Source: a bacterium
GTDB lineage: Bacteria > Patescibacteriota > Andersenbacteria > UBA10190
Assembly: GCA_030698495.1 (NCBI GenBank)
Contig: JAUYKA010000005.1
Span: forward strand, 8,404 to 72,403
Length of the DNA: 64,000 nt
Direction: 5' to 3'
Part shown: positions 3,590 to 45,172 of the stretch, piece by piece
Layout: each line of letters opens with the position of its first letter
Position numbering within the stretch: position 1 is the stretch's first letter
Made by a program: the position numbers and the translations under genes
Notes under the pieces: model-generated
What the model was told of the DNA's origin: nothing
The model's input: the letters and a program-made list of their open reading frames with translations, nothing else
The model's database searches: none

Positions 3590-3675
3590 ACTGTTATTAT
3601 TTAATGCTTTATAACTATGACACAAAACATACAAATACCTTACAACCTTCCCGGGCGGGTGGCGCCTGCAGGCGC

Positions 3676-3835
3676 TTAGTCACGGCTGCTTTTGTTTTTT
3701 GCGACCGTCTCAAGAACTGCCAGCCCGGTCCCCGCCTTGAGTTTATCGAAAGGCGGGGTGGCAGATCTTGAGCCGAGCGCAGTCCGCCGCCGGGGCGGAC
3801 AAGTACGTCGCAAAAAGCAAAAGCAGCTGTGACTA
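3676..3835. repeat. Family E element, copy 2 (between gmhA and rfbD)
   Basis: Same core architecture; the outer stem is AGTCACGGCTGCTTTTGTTTTTTGCGAC paired with its complement. Confidence 0.7.
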
Positions 3836-3875
3836 AAAATGCACCCGCCAAAGACCGCTCTCCAACACTAATCAC

Positions 3876-4697
3876 TTACCTCGTTTTAATGTACTCGTCA
3901 AGAGCCGTCTCCCACGGCCGCAACACCGGCCCCCTCGTATTATTCAATATACTATATTTCGGCCTCGCCGCGGGCAAAGGATATTCACTGCTGGCAATCG
4001 GCCTAACTATTACCTTCATCCCCGCCAACTCAAAAATCTTGACCGCAAAATCATACCAACTGGCACGGCCGCTGTTCACGGCATGATAAACCCCCGGCTC
4101 ATAACCGCCCGACACAACTTCCTTTGTCGCCCCGGCCAAATCCATCGTATACGTCGGACTGCCCCACTGATCATTAACCACCCCCAACTCTTTCTTCTCG
4201 CCGACCAAACGCAGCATCGTCTCCACAAAATTCTTACCATACGCACCGTAAAGCCACGCTGTGCGTAATAAATAATACTTTGGCGCTATTTCCCGCAAAG
4301 CCTTCTCTCCGGCCAACTTTGATTCTCCATACACATTCACTGCCGGACCAGGCTCGTCATCTTCGCCGTACCCCGCTTCCTGCTTACCATTAAAAACATA
4401 GTCCGTACTATAATGTACTAATATCGCGCCGCTTTCTTTGGCCGCCAATGCCAGATTTCTCACGCCCGTCTCGTTTATAGCAAAAGCCAAGTCGCGCTCT
4501 TTCTCCGCCCCGTCGACGTTCGTATAAGCTGCCGCGTTAATAATCAACTCCGGTGACAGCTCACTAATTTCCCGATTAACATCAGACTGTTTCGTAATGT
4601 CCAGTTTATCCTTATCCCCCACAACAGCTTCTGCCCAAACAGAGCGCAGCGCGTGCCCCAGCATACCGTTGCCGCCCACAATCAGCACCTTGGCCAT
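3876..4697 (-). CDS. rfbD: dTDP-4-dehydrorhamnose reductase
   Basis: N-terminal GGNGMLG Rossmann motif; YSTDYVF and YGESK catalytic motifs of RmlD. Confidence 0.8.
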   Translation of the reverse strand: MAKVLIVGGNGMLGHALRSVWAEAVVGDKDKLDITKQSDVNREISELSPELIINAAAYTNVDGAEKERDLAFAINETGVRNLALAAKESGAILVHYSTDYVFNGKQEAGYGEDDEPGPAVNVYGESKLAGEKALREIAPKYYLLRTAWLYGAYGKNFVETMLRLVGEKKELGVVNDQWGSPTYTMDLAGATKEVVSGGYEPGVYHAVNSGRASWYDFAVKIFELAGMKVIVRPIASSEYPLPAARPKYSILNNTRGPVLRPWETALDEYIKTR

Positions 4698-6612: not shown

Positions 6613-6639
6613 ATCCTACCAAACCTTCGCCAAATAATC

Positions 6640-6815
6640 AACCGCCATACCAGCGAGTACAGTAAATACAGCAAGTACAGTTTTTCTAACCCCCTCTATT
6701 CTAATCCTTAGGTTTAGAAAGACCTCTACAGCCTGTCTAACACTCTTTCTAAACCTAAGGTTTAGAATAATTAGAATACTTTTCTGTATTTACTGTCCTC
6801 GCTGTATTTACTAAA
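6640..6815 (-). terminator. 175-bp nested inverted repeat 3' of lepA (outer CAGTAAATACAG/CTGTATTTACTG, inner TTCTAA..TTAGGTTTAGAAAG/CTTTCTAAACCTAAGG..TTAGAA)
   Basis: Two nested inverted repeats; the CTGTATTTACT motif recurs at 37083-37141 and 58683-58730. Confidence 0.45.
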
Positions 6816-6822
6816 TTTATCC

Positions 6823-8640
6823 TCACGTTCTCTTTAATACCGCCAAATATGCCTGCGTTGGAATTTTCACTTTGCCTTGCTGCCCCATCCGTTTCTTTCC
6901 CTTCTTCTGTTTTTCCAGCAACTTTCTTTTGCGGGTCACATCCCCACCATACAAATATCCCGTCACATCCTTGCGCATTGCCGGTAATGTTTCCCGCGCA
7001 ATAATATTGCCGCCAATCGCCGCCTGAATCGGTATGGCAAACAACTGGCGCGGAATCACCTCTTTAAGCTTCTTCACCATGCGTCGTCCGATTGCTTCCG
7101 ACCTGGAACGAGCCACAATCACCGAGAGCGCCTCTACCGTCTCATGATTTACCATTACTGCCAGCTTTACCACGTCCGCGTCGCGCCATTCCGTCAATTC
7201 ATAGCTCATCGACCCATAACCCGCCGTGACCGACTTCAAATGATCGTATAAATCAACCACTAATTCCCGCAACGGCATTTCATACGTCAGCTGAACACGA
7301 TCGGCCTCCAAATAATGTTGGTTTTTTATTACCGCCTCCCGATCTTGCATAATCTCAAACACCGCCCCCATATACTTAACCGGCGTCAGCACGTCCACTG
7401 CGGCGTATCTCTCTTTTATTGATTCAATATTAGACGGATCAGGCCAACTAGCCGGAGTGTTGGCTTCTATTTCCTTCCCCCCACGCCCCATTATCTTGTA
7501 AGCGACACTGGGTGTGGTAATCACCAAATCCAGTTTATGCTCCCGATGCAGCCTCTCTTGCACAATATCCATGTGCAACATACCTAAAAATCCGCAGTGA
7601 AAACCTTGGCCCAGCGCGTCGCTCCTTTCCTGAACCACCGAAATACTGGAATCGCTAAGCAGTAACTCTCCGATGGCGTCGCGCAAAATCGGAAAATCAT
7701 CGCCTCGTTCCGGAAAAATTCCGGCGAACACTTTCGGCTGGGGAATACTGAAACCGAGCAAAGCCGTCAATTTGCCACCATCCTTAACCAGCGCGATCGT
7801 ATCTCCAACCCTCGCTTGCCGCACATCTTTCAACCCGGTAGCAATGTAGCCTATTTCCCCGGCCGACAACTCGGACTTTACCTGCCAATCGGGATTAAAA
7901 ATGCCAACCTCCACCGCGCGATCCGACGCTCCCGTTCCCAAAAAAACAATTTCATCACGCGCCTTTACTTTCCCCTCCACCACGCGCACATAAGCCACCA
8001 CTCCTTTATAATCATCGTAAACGGAATCAAAAATCAAAGCGCGCAGGGGACTATTAACGACTTGTTCAGCTGCCGGCACCCGCGACAATATTGCGTCCAG
8101 AACCTTCTCCACGCCTTCGCCCGTTTTTGCCGAAATCAACAAAATATCTTCCTCCCTGCCGCCCAAAAGACTTATTATTTCTTTCTTCGTTTTTTTAACA
8201 TCCGCCGCCGGCAAATCAACTTTATTGATCACCGGAATTATAACCAGATTCTGCTCCAATGCCAGATACAAGTTGGCAATTGTTTGCGCCTGCACTCCTT
8301 GCGTAGCATCCACCAGCAATATCGCTCCCTCCACCGCCTGTAGGCTTCGGCTGACCTCGTACTGAAAATCAACGTGCCCGGGCGTGTCGATTAAATTCAA
8401 AACACTATCACGCCTGTCCCCCATAGCCGTCACATCATGGGACGCGGCGGGGGGCCAGCTCATCCGCACCGGCTGCAATTTAATGGTGATGCCGCGCTCC
8501 CGCTCCAGCTCCATCGAGTCTAATAATTGCTCCTTCATGTGGCGTTTATCGACCGTTCCCGTCAACTCCAGCATCCGATCCGCCAAAGTGCTTTTACCGT
8601 GATCAATATGAGCGATAATACAAAAATTATATATATTCAT
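6823..8640 (-). CDS. lepA: Translation elongation factor 4 (LepA)
   Basis: AHIDHGKST G1 motif, DTPGH motif and the LepA-specific C-terminal domain; 605 aa. Confidence 0.9.
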   Translation of the reverse strand: MNIYNFCIIAHIDHGKSTLADRMLELTGTVDKRHMKEQLLDSMELERERGITIKLQPVRMSWPPAASHDVTAMGDRRDSVLNLIDTPGHVDFQYEVSRSLQAVEGAILLVDATQGVQAQTIANLYLALEQNLVIIPVINKVDLPAADVKKTKKEIISLLGGREEDILLISAKTGEGVEKVLDAILSRVPAAEQVVNSPLRALIFDSVYDDYKGVVAYVRVVEGKVKARDEIVFLGTGASDRAVEVGIFNPDWQVKSELSAGEIGYIATGLKDVRQARVGDTIALVKDGGKLTALLGFSIPQPKVFAGIFPERGDDFPILRDAIGELLLSDSSISVVQERSDALGQGFHCGFLGMLHMDIVQERLHREHKLDLVITTPSVAYKIMGRGGKEIEANTPASWPDPSNIESIKERYAAVDVLTPVKYMGAVFEIMQDREAVIKNQHYLEADRVQLTYEMPLRELVVDLYDHLKSVTAGYGSMSYELTEWRDADVVKLAVMVNHETVEALSVIVARSRSEAIGRRMVKKLKEVIPRQLFAIPIQAAIGGNIIARETLPAMRKDVTGYLYGGDVTRKRKLLEKQKKGKKRMGQQGKVKIPTQAYLAVLKRT

Positions 8641-9124
8641 AAGCCTTAGTATCGAGAATATAACACAAGACCGTATCAGCTGCCATAAATAAAATTAGGC
8701 CGCCGTTATCTGCCAAGTATCGCGATCCCCCCAGGAATCAATGCGACTCGACAAACAACGACGGCCAAAAGGGCCAAGATTCTCGCTTCGCCTTTTGACT
8801 TCACCGCGTGAAAACCGGACTGTCTCTTGGCATCCCTTTTACCTCCAACTTTAGGGTTTAGGGTGCACAGGCCAGGGGATCGCGGTACGGCTGTCGGGTG
8901 ACTTCCCCGACATTCAAACCGTTACCCGCGCGCCCGGGGGCCGCCGTCAGGAGGTCGTCGCGCAATAAGACCTTTTCTCGAGCTTCCCTCGCATACGCGC
9001 TCCTTCCTGCCAGGGCAACTAGATAGCCACCCGGCAAAGAGACAGAAAAAGAGAACAACTAACTACCCGTTTTATAGTACCTATTGACACACGAGTCAAT
9101 AGTCACATAAAAAATTAACGAGAA

Positions 9125-9230
9125 ACTCAAAATGAAAAACTCAAATTAACAAGATAAAACCAAAAACAGTTGCGGCAGTTTTGCCTTTTGCGTTGTTATT
9201 TTGAGTTTTTCGTTTTTAGTTTTTAGTTCT
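9125..9230 (-). terminator. Long AT-rich imperfect hairpin (AAAAC-repeat family) 3' of murJ
   Basis: Arms GAAAAACTCAAA...CAAAA and TTTTG...TTTGAGTTTTTC. Confidence 0.4.
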
Positions 9231-9232
9231 CT

Positions 9233-10849
9233 CTACTCCAACATCCCCCCAAACCTCGGCGTCTCCGTTCCCGCCTCTATCTTCGCCCGCCGCGGCAAAT
9301 ATTTCCGTATCGCCGCCAGCTCGTCGCACCTAAACAACAAACACATAGCCACATACGCCGCCACCCCGCCGCCGAAAGATACTAACAGCTGCAGCAATAC
9401 CCCCCAAAACCTGGTCATATCCACCATCGCCGCCACCGGATATTTTAGCGCCTGCAAAACCATTCCGGCCAGTACCGCCGCTACCGTTATCCTCGCCAAA
9501 CTAAACAGCACCTCGCGATCATTAAAACCGTTCAACTGCCAATGCAGCACGCCCAACAGCATCACTAAATTCAAAATCGCCGCCACCGAAAAAGCCAGCG
9601 CCAGCCCCTGCACGCCCATTCGCGGCGCCAACCATATTGCCAGCGCCACATTTACCACAATACTGATTAAAGAAACCGTCACCGGAATAATCGTGTTTTG
9701 CCTCACATAAAACGCTCGCGTCAACAACGGCACCGTCGCTTGCGCAAACAAACTGATCAGCAGCAACCCCAGTGTTTCGAAGGTTAGAATAGTATCTTCC
9801 CAGTCAAAAGCGCCGTCGCCAAACAGCACCCGAATCAACTGCGCGCGCAGCAAAAAGAAAAAGACCGCCACCGGCACCACTAGAAACAAAATATACCGAA
9901 AGGTTTTTGTCAGTGTATTCCTGAATTCTTTTTCCTGTCCTCGCGCTACTTGCTCCGCCAAGGTGGGAAAAGCCGCTTGGGCAAACGCCAAGCCGAATAC
10001 CCCTATCGGCAGACTCTGCACATTACTGGCCAAATGAAAAACCGAAATGGTTCCCGCCGCCAGCCCGGAACCGATTATCGTAACTAAAAACAAATTCACC
10101 TGTGTTCCGGCCAAACCGAATATACGCGGAATTATCATTCGCCGCAGTTTTTTTACATCAACGGAAGACCACTCCATTATCAGCCGCCAGCGCCAGCCGA
10201 CCGCGATCGCGCTCGGCAATTGCACCAACATATGTAGTGCTGCGCCCAGCACCACACCCCACCCCAGTCCGGATACTCCCATCATCGGCACCAGCCAAAC
10301 CACGCCGATAATTATACCGACGTTATAAAGAATCGGCGCCATCGCGTAAGCCACAAAACGCTTAAACGAATTCAGCACCCCGGAGAAAATAAAACTGATA
10401 CTCAATAATATCGGCTGCAGCGCCATCACTCGGGAAAGCATTATCGTCATTGCCAACTTGCCGCCGCTAAAACCCGGCGTTATCAAAGGCACAATCTTAT
10501 CGGCCAACATCACATATAAAATACTGAATATTATTACCACAATCAGGACTAAGTGAAGAACGGACAAGGAAAAATCAAACGCCTCTCTCTTTTTTTTATC
10601 TTTGCTATGAACCAGTTTCTCTGTGAACAAAGGAATAAACGCGGCCGACAAAGCTCCTACTACAACCAAATTAAAAATCAGGTCTGGTAAACGAAACGCC
10701 GCCACAAAAGCGTCAAACGTATCACCCGCGCCAAAGGTCGTGGTAAAAACCCTTTCTCTGATTAAACCCATGAAACGCGAACCTAAAGAGGCCGCTCCTA
10801 AAATCAGGGCCGCCGACACTACTCGACTGCTTACACCGTTTCTGGCCAT
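9233..10849 (-). CDS. murJ: Lipid II flippase MurJ/MviN family
   Basis: 538-aa polytopic membrane protein with the MurJ N-terminal signature (FMGLIRERVFTTTFGAGDTFDAF). Confidence 0.8.
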   Translation of the reverse strand: MARNGVSSRVVSAALILGAASLGSRFMGLIRERVFTTTFGAGDTFDAFVAAFRLPDLIFNLVVVGALSAAFIPLFTEKLVHSKDKKKREAFDFSLSVLHLVLIVVIIFSILYVMLADKIVPLITPGFSGGKLAMTIMLSRVMALQPILLSISFIFSGVLNSFKRFVAYAMAPILYNVGIIIGVVWLVPMMGVSGLGWGVVLGAALHMLVQLPSAIAVGWRWRLIMEWSSVDVKKLRRMIIPRIFGLAGTQVNLFLVTIIGSGLAAGTISVFHLASNVQSLPIGVFGLAFAQAAFPTLAEQVARGQEKEFRNTLTKTFRYILFLVVPVAVFFFLLRAQLIRVLFGDGAFDWEDTILTFETLGLLLISLFAQATVPLLTRAFYVRQNTIIPVTVSLISIVVNVALAIWLAPRMGVQGLALAFSVAAILNLVMLLGVLHWQLNGFNDREVLFSLARITVAAVLAGMVLQALKYPVAAMVDMTRFWGVLLQLLVSFGGGVAAYVAMCLLFRCDELAAIRKYLPRRAKIEAGTETPRFGGMLE

Positions 10850-17951: not shown

Positions 17952-17995
17952 CCAGATATATTAACGTAAGGTTGGCGACAACGCCAACCCCGCCA

Positions 17996-18110
17996 TAAAC
18001 TTAAAACTAAAAACTAAAAACTAAAAACTGCACCATAAAAAGAAAAAAGAACCGCGTAAAATCGTTCTTTTTCGTTTTTCACTTTACGTTTTGCGTTTTC
18101 TTATACCGCA
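17996..18110 (-). terminator. AAAAC-repeat hairpin family, 3' of the WbaP-like gene
   Basis: (AAAACT)x4 arm, central GC hairpin, GTTTTTCACTTTACGTTTTGCG arm. Confidence 0.4.
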
Positions 18111-19555
18111 TTCTTATCCTTCAAAAGAAGCACCAAAGTTTTAAACAATAAAATTATATCCAAAAACAAAGACCACCCTTCCACGTACGCAATATCCAAA
18201 TTAGCTTCCTGATCAAACGAAAGACCGGCGTTTCCGTTTACCTGCGCCATCCCCGACATGCCCGGCTTAATGGTAAACAGCTTTTGGTGATGCTTGCCGT
18301 AACGGCTCACCTCATTCGGCAAATGCGGCCGCGGTCCGAACAAGCTCATTTCCCCTCGCGCCACATTAATCAATTGCGGCAACTCATCAATCCGCCATTT
18401 TCTTATAAATCTCCCCACCCGCGTCACCCGCGGGTCCATTTTCATTTTAAAAAGAGGCCCCGACCTCTCATTCGTTTCCTGCCGCAGTTTTTCTTCGTAT
18501 TGCCTCGCTTTTTCTCCACCGTAATTATTCCCCGTACAAAACTCCTGCTTCATACTGCGGAATTTATAAATATCAAACGGCTTCTTATTCCGCCCAATCC
18601 TGGTTTGACTGTATAAAATCGGTCCGGGCGAATCCATTCTTATAGCCACCGCCGCGGCCATGTAAATCGGTGCTAAAATGACCGCCCCCACCAACACGCC
18701 GAACAAATCCATCAGCCGCTTGGCCACCCGACCCCAGCCGTCCAATGGCGTGCGCTGCAATTCCATCACCGGCACTCCCCCAATCTGGCGAAATTGAACA
18801 TTGGCCGCGTGCGCCTCAAACGTATTGGGCACATATTTATAATCAATCTTGTATTTATCGCAAAAATCCAACAGCATCAAATTATCTTCATCCGTTAATG
18901 TCGGCGCTGTTTGAATAACCTCATCCAGCCCCGACCGCTGATACAACTCCTCCATTTCCTCCCAGCGCACCTTTTCCGACATTCCCACCACCACATAGCC
19001 AAGCTGGGGTTTTCGCCGAAAAACCCGCTCTAACTGATCGCCATATTTTCCGTTGCCTATCAAGGCCACGCGGTGGACCCCCGTGCCGCGACGCAACAAC
19101 CATTTCTGCGCGTACCTGACCCCGAACCTCCCCGCCGTCACAAAAATAATGGCGAACACATAAGCCGCCATCACAATGAATCGAGATTGAAACAAAGCCG
19201 CACTTAAGAAAACATAAACCAGCACTATCATCACCCCGATTGATATACTGGAAAAAATATGTGTTAACTCATCCAGCGGACGACGTGTCGCTCGCATCAC
19301 ATAAAGTCCCTGCATGGCGAAAATCACAATCGTTACTACCGCCACCACGCTTATCAACTGCAGATACTCAACCAGCGGCAAATCCAGCTGAAAAACAGCC
19401 GGTCTTATCTCCTGCGCCGTCGGACTCACCCGCAAATAATAAGCCAGCAACCCGGCCGCTATCATCGCGACGAAATCAATGGGCACTAAAATCGCCCCGA
19501 AAAATAACTCGGATCTTTTCATACTCTTGTATTCAACCAGCGACCATACGACCAA
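18101..19555 (-). CDS. Undecaprenyl-phosphate hexose-1-phosphate transferase (WbaP/CpsE-type initiating sugar transferase)
   Basis: Several N-terminal TM helices; C-terminal bacterial sugar transferase domain (DELPQLINV, KPGMSGMAQVNG). Confidence 0.8.
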   Translation of the reverse strand: MVVWSLVEYKSMKRSELFFGAILVPIDFVAMIAAGLLAYYLRVSPTAQEIRPAVFQLDLPLVEYLQLISVVAVVTIVIFAMQGLYVMRATRRPLDELTHIFSSISIGVMIVLVYVFLSAALFQSRFIVMAAYVFAIIFVTAGRFGVRYAQKWLLRRGTGVHRVALIGNGKYGDQLERVFRRKPQLGYVVVGMSEKVRWEEMEELYQRSGLDEVIQTAPTLTDEDNLMLLDFCDKYKIDYKYVPNTFEAHAANVQFRQIGGVPVMELQRTPLDGWGRVAKRLMDLFGVLVGAVILAPIYMAAAVAIRMDSPGPILYSQTRIGRNKKPFDIYKFRSMKQEFCTGNNYGGEKARQYEEKLRQETNERSGPLFKMKMDPRVTRVGRFIRKWRIDELPQLINVARGEMSLFGPRPHLPNEVSRYGKHHQKLFTIKPGMSGMAQVNGNAGLSFDQEANLDIAYVEGWSLFLDIILLFKTLVLLLKDKNAV

Positions 19556-19823
19556 TCACCTAAATTGTCAATACAATATGACACTGTCTTATATTGTAAT
19601 GCCGCTACCACCTAAACCGCAACGGTTATTTAACGTGCCTATCACGGCGGGTGACGCGCTGGGGGGTCCCCCGCCGAGCGCCTGCACCCGCCTAAATTTT
19701 GCCGCAGCAAAATATTAGGCGGGGAAGCCGTCGGGCGGGGGCTCGAGCGCGGCAGGACCCGCCGGAGATGAACAATATTAGCCCCAGTCGCCTAAACGTC
19801 GTTTGACAAACCCCACATTTCGT

Positions 19824-19829
19824 ATATAA
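19824..19829 (+). promoter_or_regulatory. Candidate -10 box (TATAAT) for rnpB
   Basis: TATAAT lies 8 nt upstream of the inferred RNase P RNA 5' end. Confidence 0.35.
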
Positions 19830-19837
19830 TGTCAAAT

Positions 19838-20350
19838 GAAGACAGGTGAATGGCCGCTCTTTGTTCAAAGTTCGAGGCAACCCCTTAGGGGTTTACCCTG
19901 AGCTTGTCGAAGGGAGGAAAGTCCGGACACCTTATTGATCTTTTTCAATAAACGGGTGGCAGATAACGTCTGCCCGGAGCAATCCGAGGGACCGATACAA
20001 AATGGATAGATAGACACACGTGTATATCTATTTAATCGGCCAAGAGTGCAACAGAAACATACCGCTTTCACCCGCCGAAGCTTTACGCGAAGGCGGGCTA
20101 GTCCACTTCTTGTGGAGAGTAAGGTTGAAATCGTGAGGCCCGCCTTCGCGCGGGATACCCCTCGCTTCGGCGAGGCAAAGTAAGAGCTCACGCGGCCGCG
20201 CGGCAACGCGCGGACGGGGCAAGCCCCACCCGGTGCAACCTCAAGCAATTCCGCCTTAAAACGGAATAGGTAGAGGGCAAGAGGCGTACGGCGACGTGCG
20301 TCCCAGATAGATGGCCATTCCAGACAGAATCCGGCTTACAGCCTGTCTTC
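19838..20350 (+). ncRNA. rnpB: RNase P RNA (bacterial type A-like), about 513 nt with insertions
   Basis: P4 strands GGAGGAAAGTCCGGACACC (5') and ACAGAATCCGGCTTAC (3'). P1 pairs GAAGACAGG with CCTGTCTTC. Conserved blocks AGTGCAACAGAAAC and GGTAAGGTTGAAA are present. The region has no ORF and is GC-rich. Confidence 0.8.
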
Positions 20351-20409
20351 AAAAAAACCGCCCAGATTTTTGTCTGAGCTGTTTTTTTATGCCAACCAAA
20401 TAGATAATT

Positions 20410-43155: not shown

Positions 43156-43270
43156 GAAATTAACGTAAAATTAAAAACTAAAAACGTAAAACAACAACGT
43201 AAAAACCAAAAGACTGACGACGTTAGCGATATGGTTGTTTTTACTTTTGAGTTGTTGCTTTTCGTTTTTC
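43145..43270 (-). terminator. AAAAC-repeat hairpin family, 3' of map
   Basis: Arms of about 50 nt; shares CGTTTTTCACTTTAAGTTTT with the copy at 45045-45172. Confidence 0.45.
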
Positions 43271-43273
43271 ACT

Positions 43274-44116
43274 TTAAGTTTTTCGCTTACTCGTTAACAC
43301 TACTGGCCCCTCTTCCATCACCGCCACCGTGTGCTCCGCGTGCGCCGATAAGTTCCCGGATTTTATTTTTACCGACCAGCCATCCTCACCAGTCACCACA
43401 ACCGGATTTCCTTTTGTCACCATCGGCTCAATCGCAATCACCAACCCCGGTTCTATTAAAGCGCCGGCGCCTGCTCGGCCGAAGTTCGGCACCTGTGGTT
43501 CCTCATGCACCGCGTAACCAACACCATGCCCGACCAGCTGGCGCACTACTTCAAACCCCGCTGACTCAACATAACGCTGAATGGCACAACCGATATCACC
43601 AATCCTATTCCCTGGCAAAGCCGCCGCTATTCCCCGCTGTAGTGCTTCTTCTGTAACCGCCACTAATTCTTTTGTCTTACCGGATCCGCCTCCGACTATA
43701 ACCGTCTGCGCACTATCCAGATAATATTTACCCCGATAAATCAACCCCAAATCCAAACCAACCACATCCCCGCCAACAAATGGCGCGTCAGTTGGTATGC
43801 CATGTACCACCGCATCATTTATTGAAACACAAAGCGCCGCCGGAAAAGGTTGCTGGCCACTTGAAGCGTAATTCAAGAAAGCCGGTTCGCAACCTCGCGC
43901 CCGAATTAACCGCGTGGCCAATTCATCCAGTTCTGCTCCGGTTGTACCAACCTTAACAACACCGGCCAGTTCTGCCAACACTTCTCCCAGCATCCTTCCT
44001 CCCTCTCTTAATTTCTCTATATCATCCTTGGTTTTTAAGCGAATCACATTATTAGAATTAAGAATTATCCCCCGTCGCCCCGTCTTGACGGGGACTATGG
44101 GGGACAGGTGAATCAA
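43274..44116 (-). CDS. map: Methionine aminopeptidase type I
   Basis: Metal-ligand motifs (GHGVG, HEEP). The start is uncertain between MIHLSP and a downstream codon. Confidence 0.85.
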   Translation of the reverse strand: MIHLSPIVPVKTGRRGIILNSNNVIRLKTKDDIEKLREGGRMLGEVLAELAGVVKVGTTGAELDELATRLIRARGCEPAFLNYASSGQQPFPAALCVSINDAVVHGIPTDAPFVGGDVVGLDLGLIYRGKYYLDSAQTVIVGGGSGKTKELVAVTEEALQRGIAAALPGNRIGDIGCAIQRYVESAGFEVVRQLVGHGVGYAVHEEPQVPNFGRAGAGALIEPGLVIAIEPMVTKGNPVVVTGEDGWSVKIKSGNLSAHAEHTVAVMEEGPVVLTSKRKT

Positions 44117-44381: not shown

Positions 44382-45041
44382 TTAATTCTGCACTTTATCA
44401 ATAACCTTCATCACACTCTTAAAAACCTCCGCCACACTCGGCATCCCGTCCAACTCATGCAGTTCTCCCCGCCGGCGGTACTCCTCCACCACCGGGTATG
44501 TTAACGTCATGAACTGATCCCAGCGCGTCGCAAACTTACCCGGCTCATCATCGGGACGTACCCCTATCATTCCCCTTCTCTCCTCACAGCGGCGTCGGTC
44601 ATCGTCATTAACCACCGGAAAGTCGCCCGACACCCCCAAACAAAACTTGCGCTTAGAATTGCGCTCAATCATCTCTGCCCGATCAACAGCCAGATAGATA
44701 ACCAGCGGTTTCCCATAGTTCTCCTCGGCAAAAAAAAGATCAACAATTTTGGCTTCCGCCACCGTTCTGGGCGTGCCGTCAAAAACCAACCCCCTGCCGG
44801 ATTCAATATGTTCTTTTACCGCCGTCATTACAATTTCAGCAGCCATCTCCGGCGGCGCCAGATACCCGTTATCAATCGTCTCCTTAACGCGGTGCCCTAA
44901 ATCCGTATTCTGACGCGCCACTTCTCGAAACGCATCGCCCGTACTGAACTGATGATAACCAATTTTTTCCGCCAGCATTTTTGCCTGCGTCCCTTTTCCT
45001 GCACCTGGTGCACCCATAATATAAATAATTTTTGGCAACAT
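44382..45041 (-). CDS. adk: Adenylate kinase
   Basis: P-loop GAPGAGKGTQA; LID region with Cys/acidic residues. Confidence 0.9.
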   Translation of the reverse strand: MLPKIIYIMGAPGAGKGTQAKMLAEKIGYHQFSTGDAFREVARQNTDLGHRVKETIDNGYLAPPEMAAEIVMTAVKEHIESGRGLVFDGTPRTVAEAKIVDLFFAEENYGKPLVIYLAVDRAEMIERNSKRKFCLGVSGDFPVVNDDDRRRCEERRGMIGVRPDDEPGKFATRWDQFMTLTYPVVEEYRRRGELHELDGMPSVAEVFKSVMKVIDKVQN

Positions 45042-45044
45042 GAA

Positions 45045-45172
45045 AAATAAAAGTTAAAAACTAAAAGCGAAAAACAACAACGCAAAAATAAAAACAACTA
45101 CGCCGACGTCGGTCTTTTTGCTTTTGCGTTGTTGTTTTGCGTTTTTCACTTTAAGTTTTACGTTTACGAAAA
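45045..45172 (-). terminator. AAAAC-repeat hairpin family, 3' of secY
   Basis: GCGAAAAACAACAACGCAAAA pairs with TTTTGCGTTGTTGTTTTGCG; shared motif CGTTTTTCACTTTAAGTTTT. Confidence 0.45.

What the first reader, a model, noticed from the sequence alone, without database searches (positions are those of the whole stretch)
8641..9232. 590-bp ORF-free, GC-rich block between murJ and lepA: candidate structured RNA
No ORF of plausible coding character occupies either strand. The only ORF-track hit is a 66-aa Ala/Arg-rich artefact. GC content is clearly above that of the flanking genes, and there are many local stems, for example GTCGGGTGACTTCCCCGAC and CCGGGGGCCGCCGTCAGGAGGTCGTCGCGC. An unannotated structured RNA (tmRNA, SRP RNA or 6S) is a possibility. 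I could not align it convincingly to tmRNA or SRP RNA consensus by eye; a CUGGCAGGAAGGAGCG segment on the minus strand weakly resembles the SRP helix-8 GGAAGGAAGCAGC motif.
Basis: seen in the sequence. Interest (0 to 1): 0.55.

Follow-up and report, generated by a model that had tools for sequence, protein, structure and literature searches.

The report
Orphan small-RNA unit upstream of lepA
The gap between two genes of an uncultured Andersenbacteria-like (candidate phyla radiation) bacterium holds a repeated terminator hairpin, two promoters and a probable ~375-base lineage-specific non-coding transcript. It is not tmRNA, SRP RNA or 6S RNA, and its GC-rich core folds no better than chance.

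Summary
The 592-bp gap (8641-9232) between murJ and lepA, both on the minus strand, is real and has no credible gene. It is a composite, not one GC-rich block.

- Whole-gap GC is 47.5%, below the flanking genes (50%). Only the 330-375 bp core is GC-rich (56-59%).
- 9117-9228 is an AT-rich 51-bp-arm hairpin plus U-run. It is one of four copies in the window, each directly 3' of a minus-strand gene.
- TTGACT-17-TATAAA (9099-9071) is a near-consensus promoter-like site. The pattern has three hits in 64 kb, and one drives RNase P RNA.
- A 30-bp hairpin plus U-tract (8766-8685) keeps every basal pair against the one close relative (L082): 2 compensatory and 4 G-U-mediated changes, none broken.
- An 88-nt stretch (8842-8755) is 98% identical to L082, against 79% at lepA third codon positions.
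- lepA has its own extended -10 promoter.

Rfam, ARAGORN and a custom model find no known RNA. Without the terminator the core folds at z = -1.4, equal to genome background. More distant relatives lack the block or carry unalignable sequence.

Best reading: an orphan, independently transcribed ~375-nt RNA. It is not a universal structured RNA. Interest is modest.

The parts
9233..9235 (-). murJ stop codon (TAG); the murJ CDS is 9233-10849
   Evidence: the MurJ family hit P0121 is 100% identical
9105..9228 (-). AT-rich palindromic repeat (arms 9117-9167 and 9178-9228, 51 nt, 78% complementary) followed by the U-run UUAAUUUUUUAU (9116-9105). Probably the murJ intrinsic terminator. It belongs to a repeat family with 4 copies in the window.
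   Evidence: inverted repeat I1; other copies at about 45038-45164, 43157-43296 and 17995-18099, each directly 3' of a minus-strand gene. GC is 30%. The spurious microRNA-type Rfam hits fall on this hairpin.
9070..9113 (-). Small palindrome CTATTGAC/GTCAATAG (19-nt arms) that contains the -35 hexamer. It could be an operator, or a diverged remnant of the post-murJ element E1 seen in relatives.
   Evidence: I3. The MAFFT and blastn similarity to L081 3588-3670 is only 35 nt at 83%. The L090 loop GTAGGTTCTCAT is shown.
9071..9099 (-). Sigma-70-type promoter-like site TTGACT (9099-9094), 17-nt spacer, TATAAA (9076-9071). The predicted transcription start is about A9064.
   Evidence: the pattern TTGAC-N17-19-TATAA has 3 hits in 64 kb (0.39 expected; 0 of 100 shuffles reach 3). 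One of the other two hits sits 7 nt upstream of the RNase P RNA 5' end.
8767..9064 (-). GC-rich core of the predicted transcript (56-59% GC). Its local hairpins are no more stable than chance. It contains a predicted long-range helix 9045-9034 / 8831-8820.
   Evidence: (I6)
8947..9007 (-). Shine-Dalgarno-like GGAAGGAG (9007-9000), 5 nt, then ATG at 8994 and a 15-codon micro-ORF (MRGKLEKRSYCATTS*).
   Evidence: The codon score is non-coding-like, -0.28 per codon.
8801..8846 (-). Shine-Dalgarno-like GGAGG (8846-8842), 8 nt, then ATG at 8833 and a 10-codon micro-ORF (MPRDSPVFTR*). From 8842 onward it is 100% identical in L082; the contig starts there, so the first four bases of the GGAGG (8846-8843) are not covered.
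8755..8842 (-). 88-nt stretch under purifying selection: 86 of 88 positions identical to relative L082.
   Evidence: lepA third codon positions are 79% identical and lepA overall is 91% identical.
8685..8766 (-). Intrinsic terminator: a 30-bp hairpin (8766-8698, -45 kcal/mol) plus the U-tract UAAUUUUAUUUAU (8697-8685).
   Evidence: Among the 21 basal pairs compared with L082 there are 2 double compensatory changes, 4 single changes through G-U, and none broken. The apical sequence is replaced but still pairs. Five G-U pairs are valid only on the minus strand.
8657..8686 (-). lepA promoter: ATGGCA (8686-8681), 18-nt spacer, TG-n-TATATT (extended -10, 8662-8657). The lepA ATG is at 8640.
   Evidence: The site is conserved in L082. 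An equivalent tGGTA(T/C)GCT box lies 7-15 nt upstream of lepA in L081, L083, L085, L090, L104 and L105.

Best explanation
The block is a composite intergenic region read on the minus strand. (1) murJ transcription ends at a long AT-rich hairpin plus U-run. This hairpin is one copy of a terminator-like repeat found after at least four genes in the window. (2) A near-consensus sigma-70 promoter (TTGACT-17-TATAAA) then starts a separate transcript of about 375 nt (roughly 9064 to 8688). (3) That transcript ends at a 30-bp intrinsic terminator. (4) lepA is transcribed from its own extended -10 promoter immediately downstream, with a very short leader. The 375-nt product is most likely a lineage-specific (orphan) non-coding small RNA. 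Its functional part is probably the conserved 3' third (8842-8755) just before the terminator. The GC-rich 5' two-thirds has no detectable structural or sequence constraint.

Shown: the anatomy, the selection on the terminator structure, the sequence conservation of the 88 nt, and the absence of any known RNA family or protein homolog.

Inferred: that the promoter fires, that the RNA accumulates, and that it acts in trans, for example by base-pairing or by binding a protein.
For: - Promoter: 1 of only 3 matches to TTGAC-N17-19-TATAA in 64 kb, with 0.39 expected. Another match is the RNase P RNA promoter, placed 7 nt before that RNA's 5' end. This shows the organism uses canonical promoters for RNA genes.
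- Terminator: a -45 kcal/mol hairpin plus U-tract in both the window and L082. All 8 substitutions in the 21 basal pairs keep pairing. G-U pairs fix the strand as minus.
- Conservation: 86 of 88 nt identical, against 79% identity at lepA third codon positions.
- lepA has its own conserved -10 box in all relatives examined, including some that lack the block, so the block is not needed as a lepA leader.
- No conserved ORF.
- Fold energy favours the minus strand once the terminator is included: z = -4.0 against -2.1.
Against: - There is no expression data.
- Only one informative relative exists (L082), and it covers only the last 205 nt.
- The 5' 295 nt of the predicted RNA folds no better than shuffles.
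- Relatives with 69-74% LepA identity have no block (L085, L086, L090) or unalignable sequence (L081, L083, L089). Any function is therefore very young or dispensable.
- The -10 hexamer ends in A, not T, and fails the stricter promoter scan.
- The promoter lies in sequence with short similarity to a terminator-like element of relatives (L081), so it could be accidental.
Confidence: 0.45

Rival explanations
1. Non-functional spacer. The GC-rich core is decaying junk, for example the remnant of an old insertion at a recombination-prone junction. Only the terminators and the lepA promoter matter. The upstream promoter-like site is accidental or drives a meaningless transcript.
For: - The murJ-lepA junction is highly variable in the clade: gaps of 6-92 nt in L086, L085 and L090; two extra genes in L087/L088; 600-750 nt of unrelated non-coding DNA in L081, L083 and L089.
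- The core folds like shuffled sequence.
- nhmmer and a covariance-model search find no homolog of the block beyond L082.
- The codon score of the 66-aa frame lies between the coding and non-coding distributions, which would fit a decayed gene.
Against: - The 98% identity over 88 nt, against 79% at synonymous sites, is hard to explain for junk.
- The promoter match is rare in this window.
- No pseudogene similarity to any gene found at this junction in relatives, nor to any protein in the databases beyond weak repeat-inflated LysM hits.
Confidence: 0.22
2. Cis-acting leader or attenuator of lepA. Transcription from the 9099-9071 promoter runs through a ~375-nt leader. The conserved 88-nt sensor region and the following terminator hairpin decide whether transcription continues into lepA, as in riboswitch-like or leader-peptide-type attenuation. 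The two SD+ATG micro-ORFs would serve as translation sensors.
For: - The architecture matches: a conserved segment directly followed by a structure-conserved but sequence-variable terminator, about 55 nt before the lepA ATG.
- There are two Shine-Dalgarno+ATG micro-ORFs in a genome where 38 of 48 genes lack even a weak SD. About 0.08 such sites are expected per 375 nt and 2 are observed.
- ACGGCGGCC occurs both upstream, near 8945-8937, and in the 3' arm of the terminator. It could therefore pair alternatively with the 5' arm (sequence reading).
Against: - lepA has its own extended -10 promoter between the terminator and the ATG. It is conserved in L082 and paralleled in relatives, including some without any block.
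- No Rfam cis-regulatory family matches.
- The alternative pairing is a 9-mer repeat that would arise by chance about one time in four.
- The micro-ORF peptides are not conserved in the other lineages.
Confidence: 0.15
3. A small protein or micro-protein gene, or its pseudogene. Three candidates exist: the 66-aa ORF (9058-8858) as a diverged LysM-like protein; the 15- and 10-codon SD-preceded ORFs; or a frame-0 product reading through the UGA at 8803-8801.
For: - The exhaustive search gave two hits, both LysM-repeat proteins, with nominal E = 3e-12. The alignment covers the LysM core.
- All 4 substitutions in the gapless 98 nt shared with L082 are synonymous (3) or conservative V->I (1) in minus-strand frame 0, the frame of the 66-aa ORF and of the 10-codon ORF.
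- The SD+ATG sites are over-represented.
Against: - The E-value comes from summing 6-7 near-identical repeats. The best single repeat scores 12 bits, and 87 of 200,000 shuffles match a repeat profile as well.
- Pfam LysM does not match, and the word-index search of the 106-residue frame-0 read-through found nothing.
- Frame 0 has two in-frame stops, and TGA is a used stop codon here, in 7 of 48 genes.
- The 3-of-4 synonymous pattern has about a 0.05 chance per frame, or about 0.2 over six frames.
- The codon score of the 66-aa ORF lies below 98% of real coding segments.
- No start codon exists for the region where the synonymous changes lie.
Confidence: 0.08
4. A divergent member of a universal structured RNA family (tmRNA, SRP RNA, 6S RNA).
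For: The size (~375 nt) is in the tmRNA range. The unit has its own promoter and terminator, as those genes do. RNA families of candidate-phyla-radiation bacteria are often divergent; the RNase P RNA here carries roughly 150 nt of insertions.
Against: - No hit to any of 4227 Rfam models at E<=10 in an 0.9-kb search, where filters are lax, nor at E<=1 in the relatives' loci. The equally divergent RNase P RNA scores 170 bits.
- ARAGORN finds no tmRNA at default or 80% thresholds. At 60% it gives only junk predictions, at least one overlapping the murJ coding sequence.
- No T-arm, no tRNA-like pairing of the ends, no rod with a central bubble in the predicted fold.
- The block is absent from relatives with adjacent murJ-lepA. 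An essential universal RNA would not be missing there.
Confidence: 0.02

Closest known systems
Stand-alone bacterial small RNA genes (sigma-70 promoter, unstructured or seed region, Rho-independent terminator)
   Same: Own promoter-like site, a strong terminal hairpin plus U-tract, an intergenic location, no conserved ORF, a narrow phylogenetic range, and a conserved stretch just upstream of the terminator.
   Different: About 375 nt is long for a base-pairing sRNA. Expression is not shown, and no target or chaperone is known. It is found only in one species-level lineage of an uncultured Andersenbacteria-like organism.
Repeated palindromic intergenic elements used as terminators (REP/BIME- or MITE-like hairpin families)
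   Same: The 9117-9228 hairpin is one of four related ~110-125-nt AT-rich palindromes, each directly 3' of a gene and followed by a T-run.
   Different: It is AT-rich and much longer than classical ~35-nt REP units. No transposase or target-site duplications were examined.
Leader-peptide or riboswitch transcription attenuators
   Same: A conserved segment followed by a terminator that evolves by compensatory change, upstream of a translation-factor gene, with SD-preceded micro-ORFs.
   Different: A conserved lepA promoter sits between the terminator and the gene. No convincing antiterminator was found and there is no Rfam match.
tmRNA, SRP RNA and 6S RNA
   Same: Non-coding, with own promoter and terminator; the size is similar to tmRNA.
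   Different: No covariance-model or ARAGORN match, no defining structural domains, and absent from close relatives.

Membership tests
tmRNA (ssrA) | Match to tmRNA covariance models or an ARAGORN detection (tRNA-like domain with T-arm and acceptor stem formed by the 5' and 3' ends, plus a tag reading frame) | tested here: not met
   Rfam gave no hit at E<=10. ARAGORN found none in the window and none at 80% threshold. At 60% it gave only spurious permuted calls, at least one over the murJ coding sequence.
Bacterial SRP RNA (4.5S / large SRP) | Helix 8 (domain IV) with symmetric and asymmetric loops and a GNAR tetraloop, detected by the Bacteria_small_SRP or Bacteria_large_SRP models | tested here: not met
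No SRP model hit at E<=10.
6S RNA | A rod of about 180-200 nt with a large central bubble, matching 6S covariance models | tested here: not met
   No 6S-family hit at E<=10. The predicted fold is multibranched, not a rod. The length is about 375 nt.
RNase P RNA | Match to RNaseP_bact_a or RNaseP_bact_b | tested here: not met
   The genuine RNase P RNA is at 19838-20354 on the plus strand (170.6 bits). The block shows only an E = 4 match to a Plasmodium model, on the AT-rich hairpin.
Rho-independent (intrinsic) terminator | A stable GC-containing hairpin immediately followed by a U-tract on the transcribed strand | tested here: met
   8766-8698 forms 30 bp at -45 kcal/mol and is followed by UAAUUUUAUUUAU. 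The structure is kept in L082 through 2 compensatory and 4 G-U-mediated changes. The simple scanner missed it because its loop and stem limits are exceeded.
Sigma-70-type promoter | TTGACA-like and TATAAT-like hexamers spaced 16-18 nt apart | tested here: met
   TTGACT-17-TATAAA matches 10 of 12 positions. It is 1 of 3 pattern hits in 64 kb, with 0.39 expected. Activity was not tested.
Cis-regulatory leader or riboswitch of lepA | The element lies within the 5' UTR of the regulated gene, downstream of its promoter, and matches a known aptamer family | tested here: not met
   A conserved extended -10 promoter lies between the terminator and lepA. No Rfam cis-regulatory match.
Protein-coding gene (including a LysM-domain protein) | An ORF with a start codon and significant homologs or a domain match | tested here: not met
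   Pfam found none. The exhaustive search gave only two repeat-inflated hits with per-repeat scores of 12 bits or less and a shuffle p of 4e-4. No word-index homolog. No protein is shared with the relatives' blocks.
Trans-acting small RNA | A discrete stable transcript with a demonstrated target or binding partner | not testable with these tools
   No expression data or genetics are available. Only the promoter, terminator and conservation were inferred.

The most novel reading that the evidence does not exclude
The murJ-lepA junction of one Andersenbacteria subclade is a nursery for fast-evolving, independently transcribed micro-ORF RNAs. Each lineage carries different promoter- and terminator-bounded units with strong Shine-Dalgarno+ATG micro-ORFs, in genomes that otherwise almost lack SD sequences. 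Three relatives have ORFs ending in Pro-Pro(-Gly)-stop: MTPPG*, MHPP* and MRECRHPP*. The window has 15- and 10-codon ORFs. Sitting directly upstream of the gene for EF4/LepA, a factor that acts on stalled ribosomes, these units could be ribosome-stalling sensor RNAs or peptides. The window's block would be one divergent member of this set.
Probability: 0.07. Interest if true: 0.6.

Novelty: new member of a known kind. Interest (0 to 1): 0.22.

Why it matters
Non-coding RNAs of candidate-phyla-radiation bacteria are almost unexplored. A promoter-to-terminator unit with a selected terminator and a conserved 88-nt stretch is a concrete, testable sRNA candidate for anyone holding metatranscriptomes of the source community. 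The practical value of this check is mostly negative. The block should not be annotated as tmRNA, SRP or 6S RNA. GC-rich stems in it are not evidence of structure. Long palindromic hairpins are a general feature of intergenic DNA in this genome, so fold z-scores there need a genome-specific background.

Tried and rejected
- Known RNA families. I ran Rfam on the whole window at gathering thresholds, on 8500-9400 at E<=10, and on three relatives' loci at E<=1. The only hits in the block were microRNA and snoRNA matches on the AT-rich hairpin.
- tmRNA and tRNA. ARAGORN found nothing usable at default, 80% or 60% thresholds.
- LepA-based scan of GTDB genomes.
- MurJ-alignment scan of JGI metagenomes. 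It returned only 18 loci, all distant, and none has a homologous block.
- Look-ups of the closest LepA and MurJ relatives used all 12 calls. They gave one informative close relative (L082, truncated inside the block), two identical copies (L110, L111) and distant loci.
- Sequence similarity. blastn, nhmmer, tblastn and a covariance model of the 3' domain were run against all relatives. There is no homology beyond L082 except a 35-nt U-rich stretch shared with L081.
- Pseudogene of genes found at this junction in relatives (a Pfam NTP_transf_9 protein, a Na/H exchanger and others): no similarity.
- LysM relic: rejected as repeat-inflated.
- Upstream 14-nt pairing (8888-8875) with the terminator loop as a pseudoknot or antiterminator: the loop sequence is completely different in L082, and the partner cannot be checked there.
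- CsrB-like GGA sponge: by my own count from the sequence (no tool run), 7 GGA motifs in 375 nt is about what the composition predicts.
- Phage or plasmid origin: no blastn match.
- Alternative genetic code: TGA is a normal stop in this window.
- Literature search for Patescibacteria non-coding RNAs: nothing relevant.

Full report
**Setting.** The finding covers 8641-9232. This is exactly the space between the start of lepA (CDS 6823-8640) and the stop of murJ (CDS 9233-10849). Both genes are on the minus strand, so the block lies downstream of murJ and upstream of lepA. Protein searches place the organism among uncultured Patescibacteria (candidate phyla radiation). Its MurJ is named 'Candidatus Andersenbacteria bacterium' in NCBI.

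**Observation check.**
- The gap is ORF-free in any meaningful sense. The longest ORFs are 66 aa (minus strand, TTG start) and 42 aa (plus strand).
- The GC claim holds only for the core. The whole block is 47.5% GC, below lepA (50.1%) and murJ (50.6%). Region 8700-9030 reaches 58.6%, and 8690-9064 (56%) is in the top 3% of 375-nt windows. The two ends are 30-36% GC.
- The quoted stems exist but do not indicate unusual structure. The block folds with z about -6 on both strands. That signal comes from three palindromes.
- Without the terminator hairpin, the 295-nt core has z = -1.4 on the minus strand and -1.2 on the plus strand. Fifteen and twenty of 200 shuffles fold as well.
- Random 375-nt segments of this window have mean z -1.46 (sd 2.06). 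The most negative come from other intergenic regions. These carry huge nested palindromes: 6613-6822 has z -7.8 and 3635-3875 has z -6.9.

**Known families.**
- Rfam at gathering thresholds finds only RNase P RNA, at 19838-20354 on the plus strand (170.6 bits).
- A lax search of 8500-9400 at E<=10 gives only microRNA and snoRNA-type hits on the AT-rich hairpin. It gives nothing for tmRNA, SRP, 6S or any riboswitch.
- Relatives' loci give nothing either.
- ARAGORN finds no tRNA or tmRNA in the window, and none in the region even at 80% threshold.

**Anatomy on the minus strand.**
1. Directly after the murJ stop lies a hairpin with 51-nt arms (9228-9117), followed by UUAAUUUUUUAU. It is one of four related AT-rich palindromes in the window. 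The others are at about 45038-45164, 43157-43296 and 17995-18099. Each lies immediately 3' of a minus-strand gene. It is therefore best read as a repeated terminator element, not part of any GC-rich RNA.
2. TTGACT (9099-9094), a 17-nt spacer and TATAAA (9076-9071) form a near-consensus promoter. The pattern TTGAC-N17-19-TATAA occurs only three times in 64 kb, with 0.39 expected. One of the other two hits (19803-19829) ends 7 nt before the 5' end of RNase P RNA. That is an internal positive control for how RNA genes are promoted in this organism.
3. The GC-rich core follows. It contains two SD+ATG micro-ORFs, of 15 and 10 codons.
4. A 69-nt hairpin (8766-8698, 30 bp, -45 kcal/mol) plus a U-tract comes next.
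5. Last is an extended -10 promoter for lepA: ATGGCA, 18-nt spacer, TGtTATATT (8686-8657).

**Comparative evidence.** Only one close relative exists in the searched collections.
- L082 has 96% LepA identity, but its contig starts inside the block and gives 205 nt of it. L110 and L111 are identical copies of the window.
- Against L082, lepA is 91% identical overall and 79% identical at third codon positions. The stretch 8842-8755 is 86/88 identical.
- The terminator hairpin keeps all 21 basal pairs through 2 double compensatory and 4 G-U-mediated changes. Its apical third is replaced by different sequence that still pairs, giving -45 kcal/mol in both.
- Five G-U pairs make the helix valid only on the minus strand.
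- So the terminator structure and an adjacent 88-nt sequence are under selection in a minus-strand RNA.

**More distant relatives.** Relatives with LepA 69-74% and MurJ 71-76% identity show that the block is lineage-specific.
- murJ and lepA are 6, 90 and 92 nt apart in L086, L085 and L090.
- L087 and L088 have two extra genes at the junction.
- L081, L083 and L089 have 620 to 750 nt or more of non-coding DNA there.
- blastn, nhmmer, six-frame tblastn and a covariance model of the 3' domain detect no homology between those blocks and the window, apart from a 35-nt U-rich stretch shared with L081.
- A -10-like box, tGGTA(T/C)GCT, lies 7-15 nt upstream of the lepA ATG in six relatives. This includes L085 and L090, where murJ and lepA are only about 90 nt apart. 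This argues that lepA has its own promoter and that the upstream block is not its leader.

**Coding alternatives.**
- Pfam finds nothing in the small ORFs.
- The exhaustive search with the 66-aa ORF returns two proteins (nominal E = 3e-12 and 3e-4). Both are arrays of near-identical LysM repeats. Each repeat contributes at most 12 bits. A profile of those repeats scores the ORF at 6 bits, and 87 of 200,000 shuffles reach that. This is not significant after a search of 1.8 billion proteins.
- A 106-residue frame-0 read-through has no homologs.
- The codon-usage score of the ORF (-0.02 per codon) lies between real coding segments (mean 0.41) and wrong frames (mean -0.43).
- One curiosity remains. 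All four substitutions in the gapless 98 nt shared with L082 are synonymous (3) or V->I (1) in minus-strand frame 0. That frame has in-frame stops and no start codon where the changes lie. TGA is a normal stop here. The pattern has roughly a one-in-five chance over six frames.
- Most genes in this window have no Shine-Dalgarno sequence: only 10 of 48 have even a weak one. Two strong SD+ATG sites in 375 nt are therefore more than the roughly 0.08 expected. I can only call the micro-ORFs unexplained.

**Interpretation.**
- Most likely, at about 0.45, the block contains an independent transcription unit that makes an orphan RNA of about 375 nt. It lies between the murJ terminator repeat and the lepA promoter.
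- Its conserved 3' third is the best candidate for a functional part. Its GC-rich 5' part shows no constraint that I can measure.
- Rivals are non-functional spacer DNA (0.22), an attenuating leader of lepA (0.15), a micro-protein or pseudogene (0.08), and a divergent universal RNA (0.02).
- Expression is not shown. Strand-specific transcript mapping would decide between these readings.

**Novelty and score.**
- At best this is a new, narrowly distributed member of a familiar class: a promoter- and terminator-bounded bacterial small RNA.
Interest is 0.22.
- The most novel reading not excluded has probability about 0.07. In it, this junction hosts a fast-evolving set of SD-led micro-ORF RNAs next to the EF4 gene. 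Three relatives carry Pro-Pro(-Gly)-stop ORFs there.

Noticed in passing
window 9117-9228, 45038-45164, 43157-43296, 17995-18099: A family of ~105-140-nt AT-rich palindromes with consensus ...AAACGAAAAACTTAAAGTGAAAAACGCAAAACAACAACGCAAAAG-loop-...TTTTTAGTTTTTAGTTTTTCGTT. Each lies directly 3' of a minus-strand gene. They look like a repeated, possibly mobile, terminator cassette.
   Followed up: partly
window 6613-6822 and 3635-3875: Other intergenic regions fold into very long nested hairpins (z = -7.8 and -6.9), stronger than anything in the finding. Long palindromes seem to be a general feature of intergenic DNA in this genome.
   Followed up: partly
window 19803-20354: The RNase P RNA (class A, 170.6 bits) is 517 nt long against a 367-position model, with several large insertions. 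A canonical TTGACA-16-TATAAT promoter ends 7 nt before its 5' end.
   Followed up: partly
window 19556-19800: A GC-rich stretch of about 250 nt lies between the divergently oriented gene 18101-19555 (minus strand) and the RNase P RNA. It contains a palindrome, gcctaaattttgccgcagcaaaatattaggc. No ORF of 150 aa or more was listed there; smaller ORFs were not checked, and the stretch was not analysed.
   Followed up: no
window, all gene starts: Only 10 of 48 genes have even a weak Shine-Dalgarno 4-mer. Several have TATAAT-like boxes within about 15 nt of the ATG, which suggests leaderless or very short-leader mRNAs.
   Followed up: partly
L081 3711-3743; L083 102-128; L089 5191-5230: Strong SD+ATG micro-ORFs ending in Pro-Pro(-Gly)-stop (MTPPG*, MHPP*, MRECRHPP*) lie in the non-coding DNA between murJ and lepA of three relatives. 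One has a synonymous CCG/CCA difference. L083 and L089 share a following terminator, GTCGCTC..AGCGGCTTTTT. The window itself has no Pro-Pro-stop ORF.
   Followed up: partly
L081 about 3915-3975; L083 about 503-560; L089 about 5078: An ATGCGTGTG motif is shared by three relatives. In L081 and L083 it forms a 14-15-bp hairpin (GGCYAUGCGUGUGG / CCRYRCGCAURGCY) with compensatory differences. The unit order differs between loci.
   Followed up: no
L081 3590-3670; L090 4270-4310: Directly after murJ in these relatives there is a hairpin whose loop carries the conserved GUAGGUUCUCAU, followed by GGGCGGUU and a U-tract. Window 9085-9030 shows short similarity to the L081 copy and may be a diverged copy that now overlaps the promoter-like site.
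   Followed up: partly
window 8717-8730 / 8875-8888: A 14-nt, 93% complementary pairing exists between the apical loop of the terminator hairpin and an upstream segment. It could be a pseudoknot, but the loop sequence is not conserved in L082, and the upstream partner is missing from that contig.
   Followed up: partly
L082 (GCA_034376345.1, contig JAXMJV010000258.1): This 1.7-kb contig is labelled 'Candidatus Binatia bacterium' but encodes a LepA 96% identical to the window's Andersenbacteria-like LepA. It is probably a mis-binned contig.
   Followed up: no
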